NCBI GenBank assembly: GCA_035652395.1
Contig: DASRDX010000009.1
Coordinates: 62,642-126,641, forward strand
From: Minisyncoccota bacterium
GTDB taxonomy: Bacteria; Patescibacteriota; Minisyncoccia; Phycocordibacterales; CAJBRS01
Length of the DNA stretch: 64,000 nt
Reading direction: 5' to 3'
This document shows, piece after piece, positions 10,231 to 50,495 of the stretch. The position numbers and the translations under genes were made by a program. Numbering within the stretch: the stretch's first letter is position 1; every line of letters starts with the position of its first letter. The notes below the pieces were generated by a model. That model had not been told where the DNA came from. It saw only the letters and a program-made list of their open reading frames with translations, and did not search any database.

Positions 10231-11166
10231 TTGGAGGAAGGCACCGGACCGAACAATTTTATGGCCTCACTCTACACTCAACAAGATTCAAACATCGCCA
10301 AAACCTGGATTTTAATGATTATCTTTTTGATAGTGCTTCTAGGCATTGGTTATTTCTTCAGCTACTACTATCAAAGTCCAAGTATTTTATATTTCGCTTT
10401 TATTTTTAGCCTGATCATGAATATCGGCAGTTACTGGTTTTCGGACAAGATCGTGCTCGGTATTTCCCGCGCTAAGCAAGTAACTAAGGCTGAAGCCCCC
10501 GATCTTTATAATGTGGTGGAAAACCTTTCAATCACCGCCGGTCTTCCAATGCCGAAAATTTACATTATCAATGATCCGGCGCCGAATGCTTTTGCTACTG
10601 GCCGCAATAAGGATCACGCCGCCGTGGCTGTTACTTCGGGCCTGCTTCAAATGATGAACAAAACGGAACTTGAAGGAGTAATTGCTCATGAGCTTTCGCA
10701 TATTGGCAACCGGGATATTTTGCTTTCTACGGTGGTAGTAGTGCTGGTGGGCTTAATTACTTTGCTGTCTGATTTTTTTCTGCGGCTGTCGTTTTTTGGA
10801 GGCAACCGTAGTCGGGATAGGGAAGGCGGCGGCGCTATTCTGGCACTGATTGGTGTCGTGCTGGCCATTTTAACTCCGATAATTGCCACCTTGCTTCAGT
10901 TAGCCATCTCGCGCCGCCGCGAATCCCTTGCTGACACCAGTGGAGCCTTGCTCACACGCTACCCTGAAGGTTTGGCTTCGGCCTTGGAAAAAATTGCCGC
11001 CTATAAAGTGCCAATGAAGCACGCTAATAATGCCACCGCTCATCTTTATATATCGAATCCTTTTGGACCGGATAGCCGCCGGCTTAGCGGTATCTCCCGC
11101 CTTTTCATGACTCATCCGCCTATTGAAGAAAGAATTGCCGCCCTTCGCCAAAGCGAACAATCTTGA
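10231..11166 (+). CDS. htpX: HtpX-like zinc metalloprotease (peptidase M48)
   Basis: HELSHIGNRD (HExxH) with flanking TM helices. The LemA-HtpX pairing is common. The gene ends with TGA, which shows TGA is a stop codon here. Confidence 0.85.
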   Translation: MEEGTGPNNFMASLYTQQDSNIAKTWILMIIFLIVLLGIGYFFSYYYQSPSILYFAFIFSLIMNIGSYWFSDKIVLGISRAKQVTKAEAPDLYNVVENLSITAGLPMPKIYIINDPAPNAFATGRNKDHAAVAVTSGLLQMMNKTELEGVIAHELSHIGNRDILLSTVVVVLVGLITLLSDFFLRLSFFGGNRSRDREGGGAILALIGVVLAILTPIIATLLQLAISRRRESLADTSGALLTRYPEGLASALEKIAAYKVPMKHANNATAHLYISNPFGPDSRRLSGISRLFMTHPPIEERIAALRQSEQS

Positions 11167-15263: not shown

Positions 15264-15920
15264 ATGAACCTTAAACAGGAATCCTTTTTGCTTCGAAAAG
15301 TTAAGACGGATGAAGAGGGGAAAGAAGGCATTCTGAAACTCTCTTGGTTAACTAATGCGGTCCGACGAACGGTCATTGTAGAGATGGGAGAAATGACGGG
15401 CTGTGGATCCATTATTAATCGTTCTGTTATTATCTCGGGTCTTTTCGGCGATCAAATTAAAAGTGCCGTTTCCTTCCAACTTTATCTTCGGCCTATTGTT
15501 TCCCAGTTCTATCCCGAAGAGGTTAGTTCGCCGGTAGAAGTGAACTGGGGTTTTGACGAAAATCTAAAGCTTTGTCTGGTCGTCCCCGGACACCGTCCAA
15601 TCGCTCCAAGTTTTTTGGAATGTCGTCCTGATGTTGGCGAGTATCTGCTTTTGGTTAGCGGTTGCAGAGAGCCTTTGGTGCTCGAACTCTCCGAAATTAT
15701 CAAAAGTTCTTACTCCAGTTTCGCTAAAAAACTTTCATTGATGCACATAGATGTAGAATCGGGAATCCCAGCAAGCCTTCTTTATCGTATGAATGGTGAC
15801 GTAGCGGGCATAGCCATTACCTCCACCAGTGATGATAAAGTTCTGGCCATACCGGCTTATGAGGTCCTGAATTTTTATCATCACCATGCCGGTTTCTTGC
15901 GAGAAACTAAAACGGTTTGA
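15264..15920 (+). CDS. Hypothetical protein, possibly a degenerate trypsin-like fold
   Basis: Segments GCGSIINRSVIISGLF and RMNGDVAGIAITSTSDDKVLAIPAYEV resemble the positions of S1 protease motifs (GSGFVI..., GNSGGP...GINT...FAIP) but lack catalytic His and Ser. This is weak. Confidence 0.45.
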   Translation: MNLKQESFLLRKVKTDEEGKEGILKLSWLTNAVRRTVIVEMGEMTGCGSIINRSVIISGLFGDQIKSAVSFQLYLRPIVSQFYPEEVSSPVEVNWGFDENLKLCLVVPGHRPIAPSFLECRPDVGEYLLLVSGCREPLVLELSEIIKSSYSSFAKKLSLMHIDVESGIPASLLYRMNGDVAGIAITSTSDDKVLAIPAYEVLNFYHHHAGFLRETKTV

Positions 15921-32546: not shown

Positions 32547-32552
32547 GATTTG

Positions 32553-32962
32553 TTTCTCTTTGGATCTGTAAGCCGAATTCTGTGCGAGATAGGCGAAGTC
32601 GCTTTTCTCGTGACAATTATTTATCTGGGCCAGCTGTTACCAGCCGGCTCTAGCGGCACCCCCAGCCGTAGTTTTGAGATTTTAAAACAAAACTACGGTT
32701 GGGTACGGCCTTGCACAGGGGTAAGGATTTTGCCGTTTCACTCCCGAAATTACTTTCGGGCTTCGCCCTACAGACCATTCGCCTGTAGAGCGGCGGTTTT
32801 CTTTCGAAAACCGCCGTTTCTGTTCGCACCTCTTGGATTGCTCCAGACGGGCGTTACCCGCCACCTTTTCAAATTAATGAACTGTGTTCGGACTTTCCTC
32901 CCAATCATTTCTGACCGAGCAATTGTCCAATTCAAAGAGGCTAGAAGTATAATATAGGCCGT
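32553..32962 (-). ncRNA. rnpB: RNase P RNA, bacterial type A
   Basis: The minus strand carries GGGAGGAAAGUCCG (P4 5' strand, rc of 32889-32902), GGUAACGCC, GUGCGAACAGAAACGGCGG, and a 3' region CUGGCCCAGAUAAAUAAUUGUCACGA...CACAGAAUUCGGCUUACAG matching E. coli M1 RNA CUGGCCUAGAUGAAUGACUGUCCACGACAGAACCCGGCUUA. The region contains many nested hairpins. Exact ends are uncertain. Confidence 0.8.
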
Positions 32963-33022: not shown

Positions 33023-33421
33023 ATGGAAAAAATCAGCATTAATGTTCAGAAGGAAAGAAGCAGCAACCTTCTAGAAAAAATTGTTTATATTTTACTGGTT
33101 GGTCTAATTTTTCTTTTACCCTTATTTTTCATTCCCTCCGCGGTAATTTCCTTTGCCTACAGCAAGGTTATTCTCCTTTTTTTAATCACTCTGCTTTCTC
33201 TATTTATCTGGGCAATTGCCTCCTTTAAAAGCGGAGAGTTAGTTCTTCCATATAACTGGCTCTCGCTCGCCGCCATCGCTATTCCGGTGGTCTTTCTATT
33301 ATCTTCACTTTTTTCTCCGACCAAAAATCTTTCTTTAATCGGTGGTGGTTTTGAACTGGGGACCTTCAGTACCATATTTCTTTTAACTGTCTTGATGTTT
33401 CTGGTTTCTATTTTTGTCTGA
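33023..33421 (+). CDS. N-terminal fragment (4 TM helices) of a large membrane/TPR protein; ends at an in-frame TGA
   Basis: Same frame as 33461-35428. Hydrophobic helices run continuously into the next ORF. Confidence 0.5.
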   Translation: MEKISINVQKERSSNLLEKIVYILLVGLIFLLPLFFIPSAVISFAYSKVILLFLITLLSLFIWAIASFKSGELVLPYNWLSLAAIAIPVVFLLSSLFSPTKNLSLIGGGFELGTFSTIFLLTVLMFLVSIFV

Positions 33422-33460
33422 AGCAAGGAAAAAATCTTTTATTGCTATCTTTCATTTGGA

Positions 33461-35428
33461 GTGGCTTTTTTAGTCCTGGCTCTCTACCAAATTCTTCATT
33501 TAATTGCCGGGCCAAGCAGCTTCCTTTCTTTTAAATATTTTCTGGATGTGACAGCAAATCCCATCGGCAAGTGGAACGACTTGGGAGTCTTTTCCGGCGT
33601 AGCCGTTCTGCTTTCCCTAATTAGTCTGGAACTTCTGGCTCTTAGTCGCGGATTTAAAATTCTCTCCTACATTGTTTTGGTGGTCGGTCTGTTTTTGCTG
33701 GCCCTCACCAACTTTACTGTTATCTGGAATACTCCGATCACCATCGTTACCATTATCGGTTTCTTTGCTCTTGTATTTTTTGTTTACTTTATCTCTTCCA
33801 ACAATGCAGAGATTCAGACCGCTGAAGGAACAACTCTCGCCAGGAGCCGCAAGCTGCCACTCCCTTCGTTAATTGTTCTGGTCTTTGCCGTTATCTTTAC
33901 TTTGGCCGTAACTCCTTTATCTAATTTTTTCAATAATTACTTTCACATCAACGTTACGGACGTCGAACCAACTTGGCAATCCACTCTAGTTGTATCTAAA
34001 GGAGCCCTTTCTCACAACGCTCTCTTGGGTGTCGGACCAAATCGTTTTGACAGCCAATGGTTTCTGTCAAAGCCTGACGGTGTCAATCAAACGGATTTTT
34101 GGGATACGGCATTTAACTATGGCGTTGGTCTCATTCCAACTTTTCTCGTCACCACCGGTATTCTGGGAATTCTCGCCTGGCTGGCTTTCTTAGGCTTATT
34201 TGTCTATCTTGGTATTCGAGCCCTGTTCTCACGGGTTAAAGACCGATTTTCGCTTTATTTAATGGTTTCTTCCTTCTTTATCGCTCTTTATCTCTGGATT
34301 ATTCACATTCTATATGTTCCGAGTCTCGTTACCTTATCAATGGCTTTCATCTTCACCGGACTTTTTCTAGCCTCTCTATTTCGGGAAGGAATTCTCGGCG
34401 AAAAACGCATTCATTATGTTCAGGACTCGCGTAAAGGATTTGCCGTCATTCTACTGCTCGTCCTTGTCATTATTGGCATTCTGACTTGGGGTTACTTTAT
34501 TTCCAACAAAATAATGGCTTCCGTCTATGCCAATAAAGGAGTGATTGCCGTAAACAACAATAATATTACTGCCGCTGAAACCGACATGCTCCGAGCAGGC
34601 TCCCTCGATCGAAATCCGATTTATTATCGTCTGCTGGCGCAAGTGGAACTGACTCGCCTGAATGATTTGCTCTCGCAAAATAATCTGACCGCCAATTTAA
34701 TCCAGACTCAATTTCAATCAATTCTAAGTAATGCCGTCTCGGCTGCCACTGTTTCCACCCAGCTTGATCCAACCGATTATCGCAACTGGATGGCTCTGGG
34801 ATCGGTTTACCAGAGCGTGGTGCCTCTTGGGGTGAAGGATGCCGATACTAGCGCTGAAAGCGCCTATCAAGAAGCTCTGAAGCGCGATCCGCGAGATCCG
34901 GACATTTATCTTGCCCTGGCCCAATTAGAAGTAGCCCGCCGAAATGCCGATAAAGCAAAAGAAAATATTGTCAGTGCCTTGAAATTAAAAAATAATGATC
35001 TTCAGGCAATTTATCTCTTAGCTCAGATTCAGTTAGCTCAAAATGATTCGAATGGAGCAGTTCAGACAATGCTTGCCGCCACCACCGTTGCTCCGAACAA
35101 TGCCAGTGTCTATTATCAGTTGGGTCTTTTGGAATATGGTTTGGGAAATTATGCTGATGCCGTGACCGTCTTTAATCAAGCGGTGGCTCTTATTCCAAAT
35201 TATGCTGATGCCCGATATTATCTTGGCCTAAGCTTTTACAAGACTGGTCAAACCGCCGACGCCATTAACCAATTTCAGTACCTAGCTGACAATAATCCTG
35301 ATAATTCGGTAGTTACTGCCATTCTCGCCAATCTGAAAGCCGGCCGCGACCCATTTAGTGGCTTAAATACTTCAAACGCTAATCAACCCTCTCAAAGCGC
35401 CAGTTCTACCAAAAAAACGGCTCAATAA
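33461..35428 (+). CDS. Polytopic membrane protein with C-terminal TPR repeats (O-antigen-ligase/Wzy_C-like architecture)
   Basis: More than 8 TM helices, then TPR-like repeats (AYQEALKRDPRDPDIYLALAQLE..., YYQLGLLEYGLGNYADAVTVFNQAVALIPNYADARYYLGLSFYKTGQ). Confidence 0.6.
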   Translation: MAFLVLALYQILHLIAGPSSFLSFKYFLDVTANPIGKWNDLGVFSGVAVLLSLISLELLALSRGFKILSYIVLVVGLFLLALTNFTVIWNTPITIVTIIGFFALVFFVYFISSNNAEIQTAEGTTLARSRKLPLPSLIVLVFAVIFTLAVTPLSNFFNNYFHINVTDVEPTWQSTLVVSKGALSHNALLGVGPNRFDSQWFLSKPDGVNQTDFWDTAFNYGVGLIPTFLVTTGILGILAWLAFLGLFVYLGIRALFSRVKDRFSLYLMVSSFFIALYLWIIHILYVPSLVTLSMAFIFTGLFLASLFREGILGEKRIHYVQDSRKGFAVILLLVLVIIGILTWGYFISNKIMASVYANKGVIAVNNNNITAAETDMLRAGSLDRNPIYYRLLAQVELTRLNDLLSQNNLTANLIQTQFQSILSNAVSAATVSTQLDPTDYRNWMALGSVYQSVVPLGVKDADTSAESAYQEALKRDPRDPDIYLALAQLEVARRNADKAKENIVSALKLKNNDLQAIYLLAQIQLAQNDSNGAVQTMLAATTVAPNNASVYYQLGLLEYGLGNYADAVTVFNQAVALIPNYADARYYLGLSFYKTGQTADAINQFQYLADNNPDNSVVTAILANLKAGRDPFSGLNTSNANQPSQSASSTKKTAQ

Positions 35429-35443: not shown

Positions 35444-37132
35444 ATGGTTCGCAAGTTTCTGAATATCTTTAATAAGGAGATAGGCGGCGTTCATGAGGCC
35501 GCCTATCTCCTCGGTTTTTTCGCCATTCTTTCCCAGCTTCTGGCCCTGATTCGTGATCGCTTGTTGGCCTACTATTTCGGGGCTGGTCAGACTCTCGATG
35601 TTTATTATGCCGCTTTTAGAATTCCGGATTTTATTTTTGCTTCCATTGCCTCACTCGTTTCCATTTCCGTGCTGATTCCATTTTTAGTGGAGCGGCTTGA
35701 TCGAGACAAGGAAGAATCAAAAATTTTTCTCAATACCATTTTCACCGCCTTCTCGTTAGTAATGATTGTGGTATGTGTGGCGGCTTTCTTCTTAATTCCT
35801 TATCTTCTGAAAATTATTCTGCCGGCCCTGGCTAATGGCCCTCAACGCGACGAACTGATTACTTTATCAAGATTACTGCTTCTCTCGCCAATCTTTTTAG
35901 GCATTTCCAACTTTCTTGGTTCCATTACACAGACTTTTCGCCGATTCTTTCTTTACGCTACCAGTCCGATTATTTATAACGCCGCTATCATTTTCGGCAT
36001 CATTTTTCTGCGGCCGCATTTTGGTTTGCGCGGCATTGTCTTCGGAGTAATTATCGGAGCATTTCTCCATTTCTTTATTCAGATTCCGTTTGTTAGAGGA
36101 CAGGGGATGCTGCCTCACTTTATCGGTCGGCTGGACTGGAAAAAGGTGAAGCAAGTTATTTTTCTGTCACTGCCGCGTACCATCGCCTTATCGGCGGACA
36201 GCTTTTCTTTGCTCTGTGTCACCGCTTTTGCCGGACTAATGTTAAGCGGCTCGATCGCTATTTTTAATTTCGCTCTGAATCTTCAGTCGGTGCCACTGGC
36301 CATCATTGGAACGAGTTACACTTTGGCCGCTTTTCCAACCTTGGCCAAGCTTTATTCGCGCGGCGAAAAGAGTCAGTTTGTGGAACAGGTAGTAACGGCC
36401 GCTCGTCACATTATTTTTCTCTCTATTCCGATCACCGCTCTCTTCATTGTCTTACGGGCCCAGATTGTCCGATCTATTTTGGGGGCAGGGCATTTCAGCT
36501 GGGATGACACTCGCTTGGTGGCGGCGGCCCTTTCAATGTTCACTATCTCCCTTTTTGCCCAAGGGCTCACTCTACTTTTTGTCCGCGGCTATTACGCCGC
36601 CGGTAATACCAAAAAACCCTTAATTATCAACCTTTTAACCACTTTGGGGGACATTTTCTTTCCGTTTCTTCTCTGGCAGGCTTTTGTCCATTTTCCAATG
36701 TTTCAGTATTTTATTGAAAGCTTATTTAAGGTAAGTGATGTGGCGGGAACGGAAGTGTTGATGCTGCCGCTCGGCTATTCGATCGGCGTTCTGCTCAATG
36801 TTCTGATCTTCTTTATTGCCTTTGAGCGGGATTTCAAAAATGTGGCTGCTCACCTCTGGCGCACTTTTCGCCAGAGTTTCTCGGCAGCCATCCTGATGGG
36901 TTTTGTCGCTTACATTTCCTTAAATGTTTTTGACAAGGTTTTTGATCTCTCCACCACTATCGGCATCTTCCTCCAAGGATTGTGTTCCGGAGTGATTGGT
37001 ATTTTGTTCGGTCTTCTCATTTTGAAATTAATCAACAATCAAGAAATCGGGGAAATTTGGCAAACGCTGCACCGCCGCATCTTCCGAACCAAGGAAGTGG
37101 TGGTGGCCGAGCAGACGAAGATTGAAGTGTAA
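35444..37132 (+). CDS. murJ: Lipid II flippase MurJ (MviN family)
   Basis: AILSQLLALIRDRLLAYYFGAGQTLDVYYAAFRIPDFIFASIA matches the MurJ N-terminal signature. About 14 TM helices. Confidence 0.8.
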   Translation: MVRKFLNIFNKEIGGVHEAAYLLGFFAILSQLLALIRDRLLAYYFGAGQTLDVYYAAFRIPDFIFASIASLVSISVLIPFLVERLDRDKEESKIFLNTIFTAFSLVMIVVCVAAFFLIPYLLKIILPALANGPQRDELITLSRLLLLSPIFLGISNFLGSITQTFRRFFLYATSPIIYNAAIIFGIIFLRPHFGLRGIVFGVIIGAFLHFFIQIPFVRGQGMLPHFIGRLDWKKVKQVIFLSLPRTIALSADSFSLLCVTAFAGLMLSGSIAIFNFALNLQSVPLAIIGTSYTLAAFPTLAKLYSRGEKSQFVEQVVTAARHIIFLSIPITALFIVLRAQIVRSILGAGHFSWDDTRLVAAALSMFTISLFAQGLTLLFVRGYYAAGNTKKPLIINLLTTLGDIFFPFLLWQAFVHFPMFQYFIESLFKVSDVAGTEVLMLPLGYSIGVLLNVLIFFIAFERDFKNVAAHLWRTFRQSFSAAILMGFVAYISLNVFDKVFDLSTTIGIFLQGLCSGVIGILFGLLILKLINNQEIGEIWQTLHRRIFRTKEVVVAEQTKIEV

Positions 37133-37134
37133 TA

Positions 37135-37500
37135 TTGTTTTTTTTCTTGTCTTTTGGTAATCTCTCAAGAGATATGAATACAATCATTCCTTTAATCAAG
37201 GTCTTTGTCTGTTTCCTTTTTCTGGGTTTTTTAGGTCTTTGGGTCTACCTCACTGTCATCGAAAGGAATATCGTACGCCGTAATTTTGCTAGGATTGAAG
37301 TCAGGACAAAAAACCTGATTATCCAGATGGGGTCTTACTGTATCCTTTATTCAGTAATCTTTGTCTTTTGGCAATGGAGCTTGCCTCAACCATGGGGAAT
37401 TCTCGCAACCATACTTGGCACTTCAATTGGTGTACGGCTTGGCTATAAAATTTTCAAATTGCGAATTCACTCAATGCGCCGGCGGCTATTTCTCGAATAG
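37135..37500 (+). CDS. Hypothetical small membrane protein
   Basis: 121 aa with three hydrophobic helices. Confidence 0.4.
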   Translation: MFFFLSFGNLSRDMNTIIPLIKVFVCFLFLGFLGLWVYLTVIERNIVRRNFARIEVRTKNLIIQMGSYCILYSVIFVFWQWSLPQPWGILATILGTSIGVRLGYKIFKLRIHSMRRRLFLE

Positions 37501-48177: not shown

Positions 48178-49364
48178 TTATTTTAAAGCCAGATTTCCAG
48201 TTGCTTTGAAATCCAAGGAAGCCGATTTTTTGTTCAAATAATTGAAATATCCGGCTACGGCAATCATGACGGCGTTATCAGTAGAGAGAGATGAATGAGG
48301 AATTAAGAGTTCGGAATCAGGAAAGTCTAAAATCAGGGCCTGAAAAGCTTCCCGAATATGTTTATTGGCAATAACTCCACCTCCAACAATTAAAGTTTTG
48401 GCGCCAAATTCTTCCAGCGCCCGTTTAGTTTTTGAGACCAAGACTTCAGTTACGGCTTCTTCGAACTCTCTGGCCAGTTGAACTTTCCAGTTTGGGTTTT
48501 CTTTTTCAGTATTTGTCATACTGCGTAGACGATAAAGAACTGCCGTTTTTAATCCGGCGAAAGAGAAATCATAATCTTTGGATTTGATCATCGGTCGCGG
48601 CAAGTTGGCAATTGAACCGCCACCGTGCCGCGCCCGTGCTTCTTCTGCCAATTTTGAAATCTCCGGCCCGCCAGGATAGGGCAGTTCCATCATTCGAGCC
48701 ACCTTGTCAAAAGCTTCGCCCACGGCATCATCTCGGGTCTGTCCGAGAATTTCGTATTTCTGCCAGTCTTTCATCAAAACCAGTTCCGTATGACCGCCGC
48801 TGATAAGAAGAGCAACTGCTGGAAATTTAAAACTCTCAACTTTTAACTTTGAATTCTCCGATTTTGTCAGATCGGATTCTAAAAGAACTGACAGAATGTG
48901 TCCTTCCATATGATTGACGGCCACCACTGGCAAATCCCAGACTATCCCTAAGACCTTGGCAAAATTGATTCCTACCCAGAGAGCCGGTTCCAAGCCCGGG
49001 CCAACAGTAACGGCGATCGCTTCAAGGTCAGGTTTTGGTAGAGCCGGAAGTGCTGCTAGAAACTGTCGCAGCAATTCCGGCTCTCTTTCTAGAATTTTTT
49101 CAATCTCTTCTTGATTGAATTCTACTTTCAACTTTTGACTTTTAACTTCTGACTGGTCAAAAATCTTCTTTAAAAGAGGGATGAGATTTTTAGCATGCTC
49201 TCTCTTGGCCATCATCGGAAACACGCCTCCATATTTTTCATGGATTTTTGTTTGAGAATTAAGAGCTTCGGCCAAGATCTTGAAATGCGGCTTCGCGCCT
49301 CCTTCCGCTTCCACAATCGCCAAAGCCGTCTCATCACAGCTAGTTTCAATACCAAGAATTTTCA
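48178..49364 (-). CDS. tsaD: tRNA N6-threonylcarbamoyladenosine synthase TsaD (Kae1/YgjD family) with an internal ~40-aa insertion
   Basis: MKILGIETSCDETALAIV and HMEGH... signatures. The true start is the ATG at 49364, because the longer six-frame ORF overlaps tRNA-Val. Confidence 0.85.
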
Positions 49365-49366
49365 TT

Positions 49367-49439
49367 GTGCGCGGTGAGGGATTCGAACCCCCGGCATCAA
49401 CAACGTCAATGTTGCGCTCTACCAACTGAGCTAACCGCG
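49367..49439 (-). tRNA. tRNA-Val (anticodon GAC)
   Basis: rc: GCGCGGTTAGCTCAGTTGGTAGAGCGCAACATTGACGTTGTTGATGCCGGGGGTTCGAATCCCTCACCGCGCA. Confidence 0.85.
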
Positions 49440-49524
49440 CCTTTTATGAAATTTACCATTTTTCGGCGATAGAGGAAAAAGTTTTACCACAGTTTGCCAC
49501 ATACCTTGGAGTATCGGGCCTTCT

Positions 49525-49643: not shown

Positions 49644-50414
49644 TCAATGAATCTTTTTGTAATGTTTCAAGTAAGCCACGATGATGAAGCTGATTATAAC
49701 CATCAAAAACCAAGAGGTGATTTTGTTGGTAGAAACGACATTCCATACATGAACTTGATCGGGATATTGCCAGGCGCCCCAAAAAGTTGAAAGATTTTCG
49801 GCAACCCAAAGAAAGAAGGCGATGAGACAGAAGCCTAAAGCAAGCGGCATGGAGCGACGTCTTTCCGTAACTGTAAAGAAGACTTGAGTGCGGGCAAATA
49901 GAAGAAATACTGCCGGAATAAGTAGAATACGAAGATCCGGAATAAAGTGATTGGTGAAAAAGTTAAGGTAAATTAAAACTCCCAGCACTAACATGGCCGG
50001 ATAATTTGGTGGCTCTTCCAGTTCAAGTTTCAGTATTCTCCAAGCTTGAGCAATGTAGCTTCCTACAGAGGCGTACATAAAACCGGCAAAGAGCGGCACG
50101 GTAGCGATTTTAAAGATAGCCGCTTCGGGATAACTCCATGAGCCGATAGCTGGATTAGTCTTGAAAACTTCCAAAAGAGTTCCAATAAGGTGAAAGAGAA
50201 AAATAGTTTTGATCTCATCCCATGTCTCGATTTTTGTCAGAAATAGAATAATCTGCAAAAGAACCGCCGATAAAAAGAGAAAATCGTATCTCGCCAAACC
50301 AAAAAGGGGAATGTGATTTGAAAGAAATAAAAGAGCAAAAAATGAGCCCGCAAAAATGCAGGCACGGGCTTCTTTTATGATGAAGATCATGAATTCTCGA
50401 GCAAGTTTTTTCAT
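49644..50414 (-). CDS. DUF817 family membrane protein
   Basis: 256 aa, polytopic. IKEARACIFAGSFFALLFLS...FHLIGTLLEVFKT resembles DUF817. Confidence 0.6.
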   Translation of the reverse strand: MKKLAREFMIFIIKEARACIFAGSFFALLFLSNHIPLFGLARYDFLFLSAVLLQIILFLTKIETWDEIKTIFLFHLIGTLLEVFKTNPAIGSWSYPEAAIFKIATVPLFAGFMYASVGSYIAQAWRILKLELEEPPNYPAMLVLGVLIYLNFFTNHFIPDLRILLIPAVFLLFARTQVFFTVTERRRSMPLALGFCLIAFFLWVAENLSTFWGAWQYPDQVHVWNVVSTNKITSWFLMVIISFIIVAYLKHYKKIH

Positions 50415-50423
50415 GAAATATTG

Positions 50424-50495
50424 TGACCCTACCGGGAATCGAACCCGGATTACCAGCTTGAAAAGCTGATGTCCTAACCGTTAGACGATAGGGCC
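50424..50495 (-). tRNA. tRNA-Glu (anticodon TTC)
   Basis: rc: GGCCCTATCGTCTAACGGTTAGGACATCAGCTTTTCAAGCTGGTAATCCGGGTTCGATTCCCGGTAGGGTCA. Confidence 0.85.

What the first reader, a model, noticed from the sequence alone, without database searches (positions are those of the whole stretch)
33023..35428. Single in-frame TGA splits a large TPR-containing membrane protein
ORFs 33023-33421 and 33461-35428 are in the same frame. They are separated only by the TGA at 33419-33421, and the 13 codons between that TGA and the called GTG start also have no stop. Hydrophobic helices run continuously across the junction. TGA is a genuine stop elsewhere (htpX 11164-11166; 15918-15920), so this is not genome-wide recoding. 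It could be a recent nonsense mutation making a pseudogene, a sequencing error, two genuinely split genes, or programmed read-through.
Basis: seen in the sequence. Interest (0 to 1): 0.5.

Follow-up and report, generated by a model that had tools for sequence, protein, structure and literature searches.

The report
One-base stop in a membrane gene
A single TGA interrupts an otherwise intact gene for a WaaL-like membrane protein with a TPR tail, but other assemblies of the same genome read arginine at that codon, so this is an ordinary one-base nonsense variant or assembly error and not recoding.

Summary
TGA at 33419-33421 is the only stop in frame between 33023 and 35428, and it splits an 801-codon gene into pieces of 132 and 655 (668) codons.

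The interpretation resolves to the ordinary options. Of 118 homologues, 117 are single proteins of about 800 aa that span the junction. Three syntenic orthologues carry CGT, CGA and CGC (Arg) at this codon. Across the family the position is Arg in 72 of 118 and Lys in 13, never Trp or Cys.

The most telling result is an 801-aa protein in JGI/IMG, Logan and ENA. It equals the window's read-through translation exactly except for Arg at residue 133. A 271-aa fragment from run SRR5581483 agrees. Fifteen of 15 neighbouring proteins (7309 aa) are identical between those sources and this record. The TGA is therefore a one-base difference, most simply CGA to TGA, known only from this deposited MAG.

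No downstream hairpin exists (z = 0.03). The TGAA context matches genuine stops here. TGA ends other genes, and no suppressor tRNA lies in the window.

This is ordinary and of low interest. Read pile-up would separate a true allele from a consensus error.

The parts
33023..35428 (+). One gene of 801 codons plus its TAA stop. It encodes a WaaL-like polytopic membrane protein with a C-terminal TPR domain and is interrupted by one TGA.
   Evidence: Single frame with one internal stop. It covers 100% of the 786-798 aa orthologues. P0121 (801 aa) is identical except for Arg133. AF2 model pLDDT 93, pTM 0.90.
33023..33418 (+). Upstream piece, 132 codons, annotated at NCBI as hypothetical protein HZS42722.1. 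It holds predicted transmembrane helices 1-4.
   Evidence: Helices 16-31, 44-70, 79-96 and 115-131 in the model.
33419..33421 (+). The in-frame TGA. It aligns with Arg in the family and is one transition away from CGA.
   Evidence: Arg in 72 of 118 homologues, Lys in 13. CGT, CGA and CGC in orthologues L001, L004 and L006. Arg in P0121 and P0123.
33422..33460 (+). Thirteen codons between the TGA and the called GTG. They are coding sequence of the same gene (SKEKIFYCYLSFG), not an intergenic spacer.
   Evidence: They align with the conserved KExIF..YLAF motif. A run of 24 nt here is identical to orthologue L001.
33461..35428 (+). Downstream piece, 655 codons from a GTG, annotated at NCBI as 'tetratricopeptide repeat protein' HZS42723.1. 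It holds the rest of helix 5, helices 6-13 and the TPR domain. The GTG is probably only the gene-caller's first available start.
   Evidence: 48 of my 50 gene calls in the window start with ATG, and the next in-frame ATG is 280 codons downstream.
34565..35338 (+). TPR repeat domain, residues about 515-772 of the fused protein. It is predicted to be extracytoplasmic because it follows a 13th transmembrane helix.
   Evidence: Pfam TPR_2, TPR_19, TPR_11 and TPR_16 at E about 1e-17. Helical repeats 515-772 in the model. The topology is inferred.
32553..32938 (-). Upstream neighbour: RNase P RNA (bacterial class A). Context only.
   Evidence: Rfam RF00010, 142.7 bits.
35444..37132 (+). Downstream neighbour, 16 nt after the gene's TAA: murJ (lipid II flippase). 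The synteny is conserved, so the two are probably co-transcribed.
   Evidence: Pfam MurJ E = 1.2e-62. Same gene order in L001, L004 and L006.

Best explanation
The locus is one gene for an ~800-aa envelope protein with 13 predicted transmembrane helices, a WaaL (O-antigen-ligase)-like fold and an outward-facing TPR domain. It is conserved next to murJ in Paceibacteria. In this deposited MAG, codon 133 reads TGA where the lineage has an Arg codon (CGN). The simplest change is a single C-to-T transition from CGA, which is this genome's commonest Arg codon. The change is known only from this assembly. Other assemblies of the same genome encode the intact protein with Arg133 and have no other difference. 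The TGA is therefore either a nonsense allele that is very young or in the minority, or a base-calling or consensus error in this assembly. It is read as an ordinary stop. No recoding mechanism is involved. Shown: one gene; Arg at the homologous position; an intact allele in the same population; no recoding signals. Inferred: the direction C to T; that the stop abolishes function by leaving a 4-helix fragment, with the rest made at best by inefficient re-initiation at GTG 33461 or by background read-through. Not decidable here: whether it is a real allele (my estimate about 45%) or an assembly artefact (about 45%).
Against: I could not retrieve the DNA of the Arg133 version or any reads. The codon there (CGA or AGA) and the allele frequencies are therefore unknown. 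A real mutation cannot be separated from an artefact. P0121 is listed on a contig of 462,702 bp, the same length as the NCBI contig. If these are the same contig, a one-base difference between copies is odd and unexplained. NCBI's pipeline annotated two CDSs rather than a pseudogene.
Confidence: 0.9

Rival explanations
1. A functional split: the organism makes a 4-helix N-terminal fragment and, by re-initiation at GTG 33461, a 655-aa C-terminal fragment. The two assemble in the membrane into an active WaaL-like protein, so the TGA is tolerated or even selected.
For: A GTG lies 13 codons after the stop, and the cut falls in a loop between helices rather than inside one. From general knowledge, polytopic membrane proteins can sometimes be reconstituted from fragments cut in loops, and bacterial ribosomes can re-initiate near a stop.
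Against: No homologue is split: 117 of 118 span the junction. The 13 intervening codons are conserved coding sequence that would be lost. 48 of my 50 gene calls here start at ATG, and nothing marks this GTG as a start. The intact allele exists in the same genome background.
Confidence: 0.05
2. Programmed read-through or recoding of this UGA, as selenocysteine, Trp, Gly, or Arg through a near-cognate tRNA, to produce the full-length protein.
For: The frame stays open, and the full-length product would be the conserved protein. From general knowledge, background UGA leakiness exists in bacteria and would give traces of full-length protein.
Against: No structure downstream of the stop (z = 0.03). 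The aligned residue is Arg or Lys, never Cys or Trp, and Gly only once in 118. The TGAA context matches other TGA stops here. No tRNA-UCA in the window. TGA terminates other genes, and none of my other 48 gene calls has an in-frame TGA. No relative has TGA at this codon. The same genome in other assemblies simply has Arg.
Confidence: 0.02
3. An old pseudogene: the gene is decaying and is no longer under selection in this lineage.
For: The stop would remove 84% of the protein from normal translation.
Against: There is no other lesion. The read-through translation is 100% identical to the intact P0121 over 800 residues. All nearly invariant family residues listed are compatible with the sequence. 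The gene keeps its conserved position upstream of murJ.
Confidence: 0.03

Closest known systems
Nonsense (CGA to TGA) mutation, or a single-base consensus discrepancy, in a metagenome-assembled genome
   Same: One transition away from the sense codon used by relatives. The gene is otherwise intact. The intact allele is present in other assemblies of the same genome. The annotation pipeline split the gene into two CDSs.
   Different: Nothing distinguishes it. The only open point is whether the T is present in the reads.
WaaL O-antigen ligase (PDB 7TPJ, Cupriavidus metallidurans) and the Wzy_C superfamily
   Different: Only 14% identity. No hit to any Pfam model, including Wzy_C (PF04932), or to any NCBIfam model for the membrane domain. 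There is an extra 13th helix and a C-terminal domain of about 260 aa made of TPR repeats. The host is a Paceibacteria (CPR) bacterium, which from general knowledge is monoderm-like and lacks LPS, so the acceptor cannot be lipid A-core.
UGA recoding systems: selenocysteine insertion, and genetic codes 4 and 25 (UGA = Trp or Gly; code 25 occurs in the CPR lineages Gracilibacteria and Absconditabacteria)
   Same: An in-frame UGA inside a conserved gene of a CPR bacterium.
   Different: It is a single occurrence. UGA ends other genes. The aligned residue is Arg. There is no SECIS-like hairpin. The genome belongs to Paceibacterota, which uses the standard code.

Membership tests
Gene disrupted by a single nonsense substitution (or a base error) | Orthologues encode one continuous polypeptide across the site | tested here: met
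   117 of 118 homologues span both sides. Three syntenic orthologues are single genes of 786-798 aa.
Gene disrupted by a single nonsense substitution (or a base error) | The stop is one base change from the sense codon found in relatives | tested here: met
   Relatives have CGT, CGA and CGC. TGA is one transition from CGA, the commonest Arg codon here.
Gene disrupted by a single nonsense substitution (or a base error) | An intact allele exists in the same or a near-identical genome | tested here: met
   P0121 (801 aa) and P0123 (271 aa) carry Arg133 and are otherwise identical. 15 of 15 neighbouring proteins are identical across sources.
Gene disrupted by a single nonsense substitution (or a base error) | The T is supported by the sequencing reads (real allele versus consensus error) | not testable with these tools
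   No reads are available. The alternative contig's DNA was not retrievable.
Naturally split (two-gene) form | Relatives consistently have two genes, and the second has its own start | tested here: not met
   No split relative among 118. The only start is a GTG inside conserved coding sequence, and the next ATG is 280 codons downstream.
Selenocysteine insertion at UGA | Stem-loop (bacterial SECIS) immediately 3' of the UGA | tested here: not met
   33410-33500 folds at -14.0 kcal/mol against a shuffle mean of -14.1 (z = 0.03).
Selenocysteine insertion at UGA | Cys or Sec at the homologous position in relatives | tested here: not met
   Arg 72, Lys 13, Ser 9, Asn 8, Gln 7; Cys 0.
UGA reassignment (codes 4 and 25) | UGA is frequent inside conserved genes, is not used as a stop, and aligns with Trp or Gly | tested here: not met
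   TGA ends 7 of my 50 gene calls, which include the two pieces of this gene, and none of the other 48 has an in-frame TGA. The aligned column has Trp 0 and Gly 1 of 118. No tRNA-UCA in the window.
WaaL / O-antigen ligase-like (Wzy_C) superfamily | Polytopic membrane fold of WaaL | tested here: met
   [not shown]
WaaL / O-antigen ligase-like (Wzy_C) superfamily | Sequence match to the Wzy_C model (PF04932) or an NCBIfam ligase model | tested here: not met
   No Pfam family matched the membrane domain even at E <= 10. NCBIfam gave only TPR hits. A profile search against PDB sequences gave only TPR hits.
WaaL / O-antigen ligase-like (Wzy_C) superfamily | Catalytic His/Arg residues in the large extracytoplasmic loop, and ligase activity on undecaprenyl-PP-linked glycans | not tested
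   No residue-level superposition was available. The invariant residues of the family (G182, G336, G338, W360, F364, G379, W425, G446) include no His. Activity needs experiment.
TPR repeat proteins | Multiple 34-residue helical hairpin repeats | tested here: met
   [not shown]

The most novel reading that the evidence does not exclude
The TGA is a real, maintained allele. The WaaL-like/TPR protein is then made either as two co-assembling fragments (4 helices plus 9 helices and the TPR domain, by re-initiation at GTG 33461) or as full-length protein by efficient UGA read-through. That would be a natural split or a regulated version of an envelope glycan ligase in a CPR bacterium.
Probability: 0.04. 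Interest if true: 0.4.

Novelty: already known. Interest (0 to 1): 0.08.

Why it matters
It matters little biologically. It is a one-base nonsense difference, known only from one deposited MAG, in a gene that is intact in other assemblies of the same genome and in all relatives. The practical value is for annotation. HZS42722.1 (132 aa, 'hypothetical') and HZS42723.1 (655 aa, 'TPR protein') are two halves of one gene. They should be merged or flagged as a pseudogene or possible sequence error. A by-product is that this ~800-aa family, conserved in Paceibacteria and encoded beside murJ, has a WaaL-like fold that no Pfam or NCBIfam model detects. That could be of modest interest for cell-envelope biology of CPR bacteria.

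Tried and rejected
1. I tried to fetch the DNA of the Arg133 version, or of any other copy of this contig. Exact look-ups of P0002, P0121, MurJ and RNR-beta found nothing on record. Pattern scans of the metagenome and genome collections found nothing with a 37-mer carrying NNN at the codon. A conserved 24-mer found only the orthologue L001/L003.

2. Selenocysteine or a read-through hairpin is rejected.

3. Genome-wide TGA recoding is rejected.

4. I looked for an independent ribosome-binding site for GTG 33461. This is uninformative, because essentially none of my 50 gene calls in the window has a Shine-Dalgarno motif at the normal distance.

6. A literature search for the run accession SRR5581483 found nothing. 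A search for O-antigen ligase + TPR + Patescibacteria gave one paper that I did not read, since its title and abstract concern a different protein superfamily.

7. In one search, six look-ups failed because I trimmed the wrong end of minus-strand genes. Five of those genes were repeated correctly.

Full report
**Observation.** TGA occupies 33419-33421. ORF 33023-33421 (ATG, 132 aa) and ORF 33461-35428 (GTG, 655 aa) share a frame. Translating 33023-35428 gives one internal stop, at codon 133, plus the terminal TAA. The 13 codons between the TGA and the called GTG encode SKEKIFYCYLSFG.

I made 50 gene calls in the window, counting the two pieces of this gene. TGA ends 7 of them (TAA 30, TAG 13), and none of the other 48 has an in-frame TGA, so the genome uses the standard code. 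Seven same-frame neighbouring ORF pairs occur in the window. This is the only pair separated by TGA. It is also the only one without a start within 5 codons; the first ATG is 280 codons downstream.

**Whose genome.** The 132-aa and 655-aa products match two NCBI entries exactly. These are HZS42722.1 (hypothetical protein VFA52_00675) and HZS42723.1 (tetratricopeptide repeat protein), from a 'MAG TPA: Candidatus Paceibacterota bacterium' on a contig of 462,702 bp. The stop is therefore in the deposited record. NCBI annotated two CDSs.

**One gene, not two.** A search with the fused N-terminal 550 residues returned 280 significant hits. The listed ones are nearly all proteins of about 800 aa covering 93-100% of the query. 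In an alignment of the window with 118 of them, 117 have residues on both sides of the junction.

The three closest orthologues are 75%, 59% and 59% identical to the search query. They sit in the same gene order: RNR large subunit, RNR small subunit, this gene, murJ, lepA. Each is a single gene of 786-798 aa (window context).

The segment after the stop aligns with the conserved motif xKExIFxxYLAF. It includes 24 nt identical to orthologue L001.

**What the stop replaces.**
- In the family the column reads Arg 72, Lys 13, Ser 9, Asn 8, Gln 7, Thr 3, Val 2, Asp 2, Pro 1, Gly 1. There is no Trp and no Cys.
- The three orthologues use CGT, CGA and CGC.
- TGA is one transition from CGA. CGA is the most used Arg codon in the window (155 of 658) and in this gene (7 of 22).

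**The decisive result.** The 90%-identity cluster of the 655-aa piece contains P0121, an 801-aa protein from JGI/IMG, Logan and ENA. It is identical to the window's read-through translation at every position except residue 133, which is Arg. The cluster of the 132-aa piece contains P0123, a 271-aa fragment from run SRR5581483 in the SRC collection. It is also identical and also has Arg133.

To see whether those sources hold the same genome, I looked up 15 neighbouring window proteins, 7309 aa in total. All 15 are present with exactly the same sequence in NCBI, JGI/IMG, Logan and ENA. Several are also in SRC SRR5581483, and one is in the 'gem' source. Other assemblies of this same genome therefore carry an intact gene. 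The only difference I found is this one codon.

**No recoding.**
- The 91 nt from 33410 fold at -14.0 kcal/mol, against -14.1 ± 2.9 for shuffles (z = 0.03), so there is no SECIS-like or read-through-promoting hairpin.
- The context TGA-A is shared with 3 other TGA-terminated calls in the window.
- The seven tRNAs in the window do not include a UCA anticodon.
- No relative has TGA at the position.

A Shine-Dalgarno test for the GTG is uninformative. Essentially none of the 50 gene calls here has such a motif at the normal distance, and 48 of the 50 start with ATG. The GTG looks like the first start codon available to the gene-caller.

**What the protein is.** With the 119-sequence alignment, AlphaFold2 gave a confident model (pLDDT 93.1, pTM 0.90).
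- It has thirteen long hydrophobic helices between residues 16 and about 511.
- A helical loop region spans residues 318-356.
- A helical-repeat domain spans residues 515-772.

I infer a WaaL-like polytopic enzyme or scaffold. WaaL has 12 helices (general knowledge). An additional 13th helix would place the TPR domain outside the cell. The conserved position next to murJ suggests a role in envelope glycan assembly. The function is not shown.

The stop falls in the short basic turn (R)SKEK between helices 4 and 5. By the positive-inside rule (general knowledge), this turn is a cytoplasmic loop. Termination there leaves a 132-aa, four-helix fragment of a single-domain fold.

**Most likely explanation.** This is a one-base C-to-T difference (CGA to TGA), known only from this deposited assembly, in a gene that is intact in the lineage and in other assemblies of the same genome. 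It is either a real nonsense allele that is very young or in the minority, or a consensus error. I cannot separate these without reads. Three or four other assemblies or sources give Arg, which suggests C is the majority base, but that is an inference.

If the allele is real, the gene is probably a null. A conserved family, the loss of the 13 junction codons, and possible polarity on murJ all argue against a tolerated split. The polarity point is inference.

- Functional split by re-initiation: about 5%.
- Programmed read-through: about 2%.
- Old pseudogene: about 3%. It is unlikely because there is no second lesion in 800 codons.

**Unexplained.** P0121 is not an NCBI protein, yet it is listed on a contig of 462,702 bp, exactly the length of the NCBI contig. 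If the two are the same contig, a single-base difference between copies needs an explanation, such as post-assembly polishing or an ambiguity code. I could not fetch the DNA to check.

**Verdict.** This is a known kind of event, a nonsense SNP or base error that splits a gene in a MAG annotation. Interest is low.

Noticed in passing
[not shown]
   Followed up: partly
window 32553-32938 (-); L001 4031-4441 (-); L004 3500-3916 (-); L005 106-522 (-): RNase P RNA (RF00010, 142.7 bits) lies between the RNR small-subunit gene and the gene of interest. A mechanical 135-aa ORF (32550-32957, +) overlaps it. At the equivalent place in related loci, gene-callers placed 136-138 aa ORFs with no Pfam hit. 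These are probably mis-called proteins over the RNase P RNA gene.
   Followed up: no
whole window (50 gene starts): Essentially no Shine-Dalgarno motif (GGAG, GAGG, AGGA or AAGG) occurs in the -15 to -5 region of any gene call. Leaders are A/T-rich, and 48 of the 50 calls start with ATG. This genome apparently does not rely on SD-led initiation.
   Followed up: partly
window 37135-37500 (+), probable ATG at 37175: A small hydrophobic ORF fills a 440-nt gap between murJ and lepA. A 131-aa ORF sits at the same place in L006 (8096-8491). In L001 and L004, murJ and lepA are only 15-60 nt apart. It has no Pfam hit.
   Followed up: no
protein-collection record of P0121 compared with P0002: The intact 801-aa version (sources JGI/IMG, Logan and ENA, not NCBI) is listed on a contig of 462,702 bp, the same length as the NCBI contig that carries the TGA. 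Either the same contig exists in two versions differing at this base, or the contig field is not source-specific.
   Followed up: partly
SRC proteins P0125 (MurJ) and window 35444-37132: The protein-level assembly of MurJ from SRR5581483 differs from the window's MurJ at two residues (L to F in TSYT(L/F)AAFP and G to V in TTI(G/V)IFLQ). Some micro-diversity, or read-level error, therefore exists in that sample. A segregating nonsense allele is plausible.
   Followed up: no
window 48178-49425 (-) and tRNA-Val 49367-49440 (-): The mechanical TTG-start ORF of 415 aa overlaps a tRNA-Val gene at its 5' end, so the real start must lie further downstream. Similarly, ORF 49644-50414 (-) abuts tRNA-Glu at 50423-50495.
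   Followed up: no
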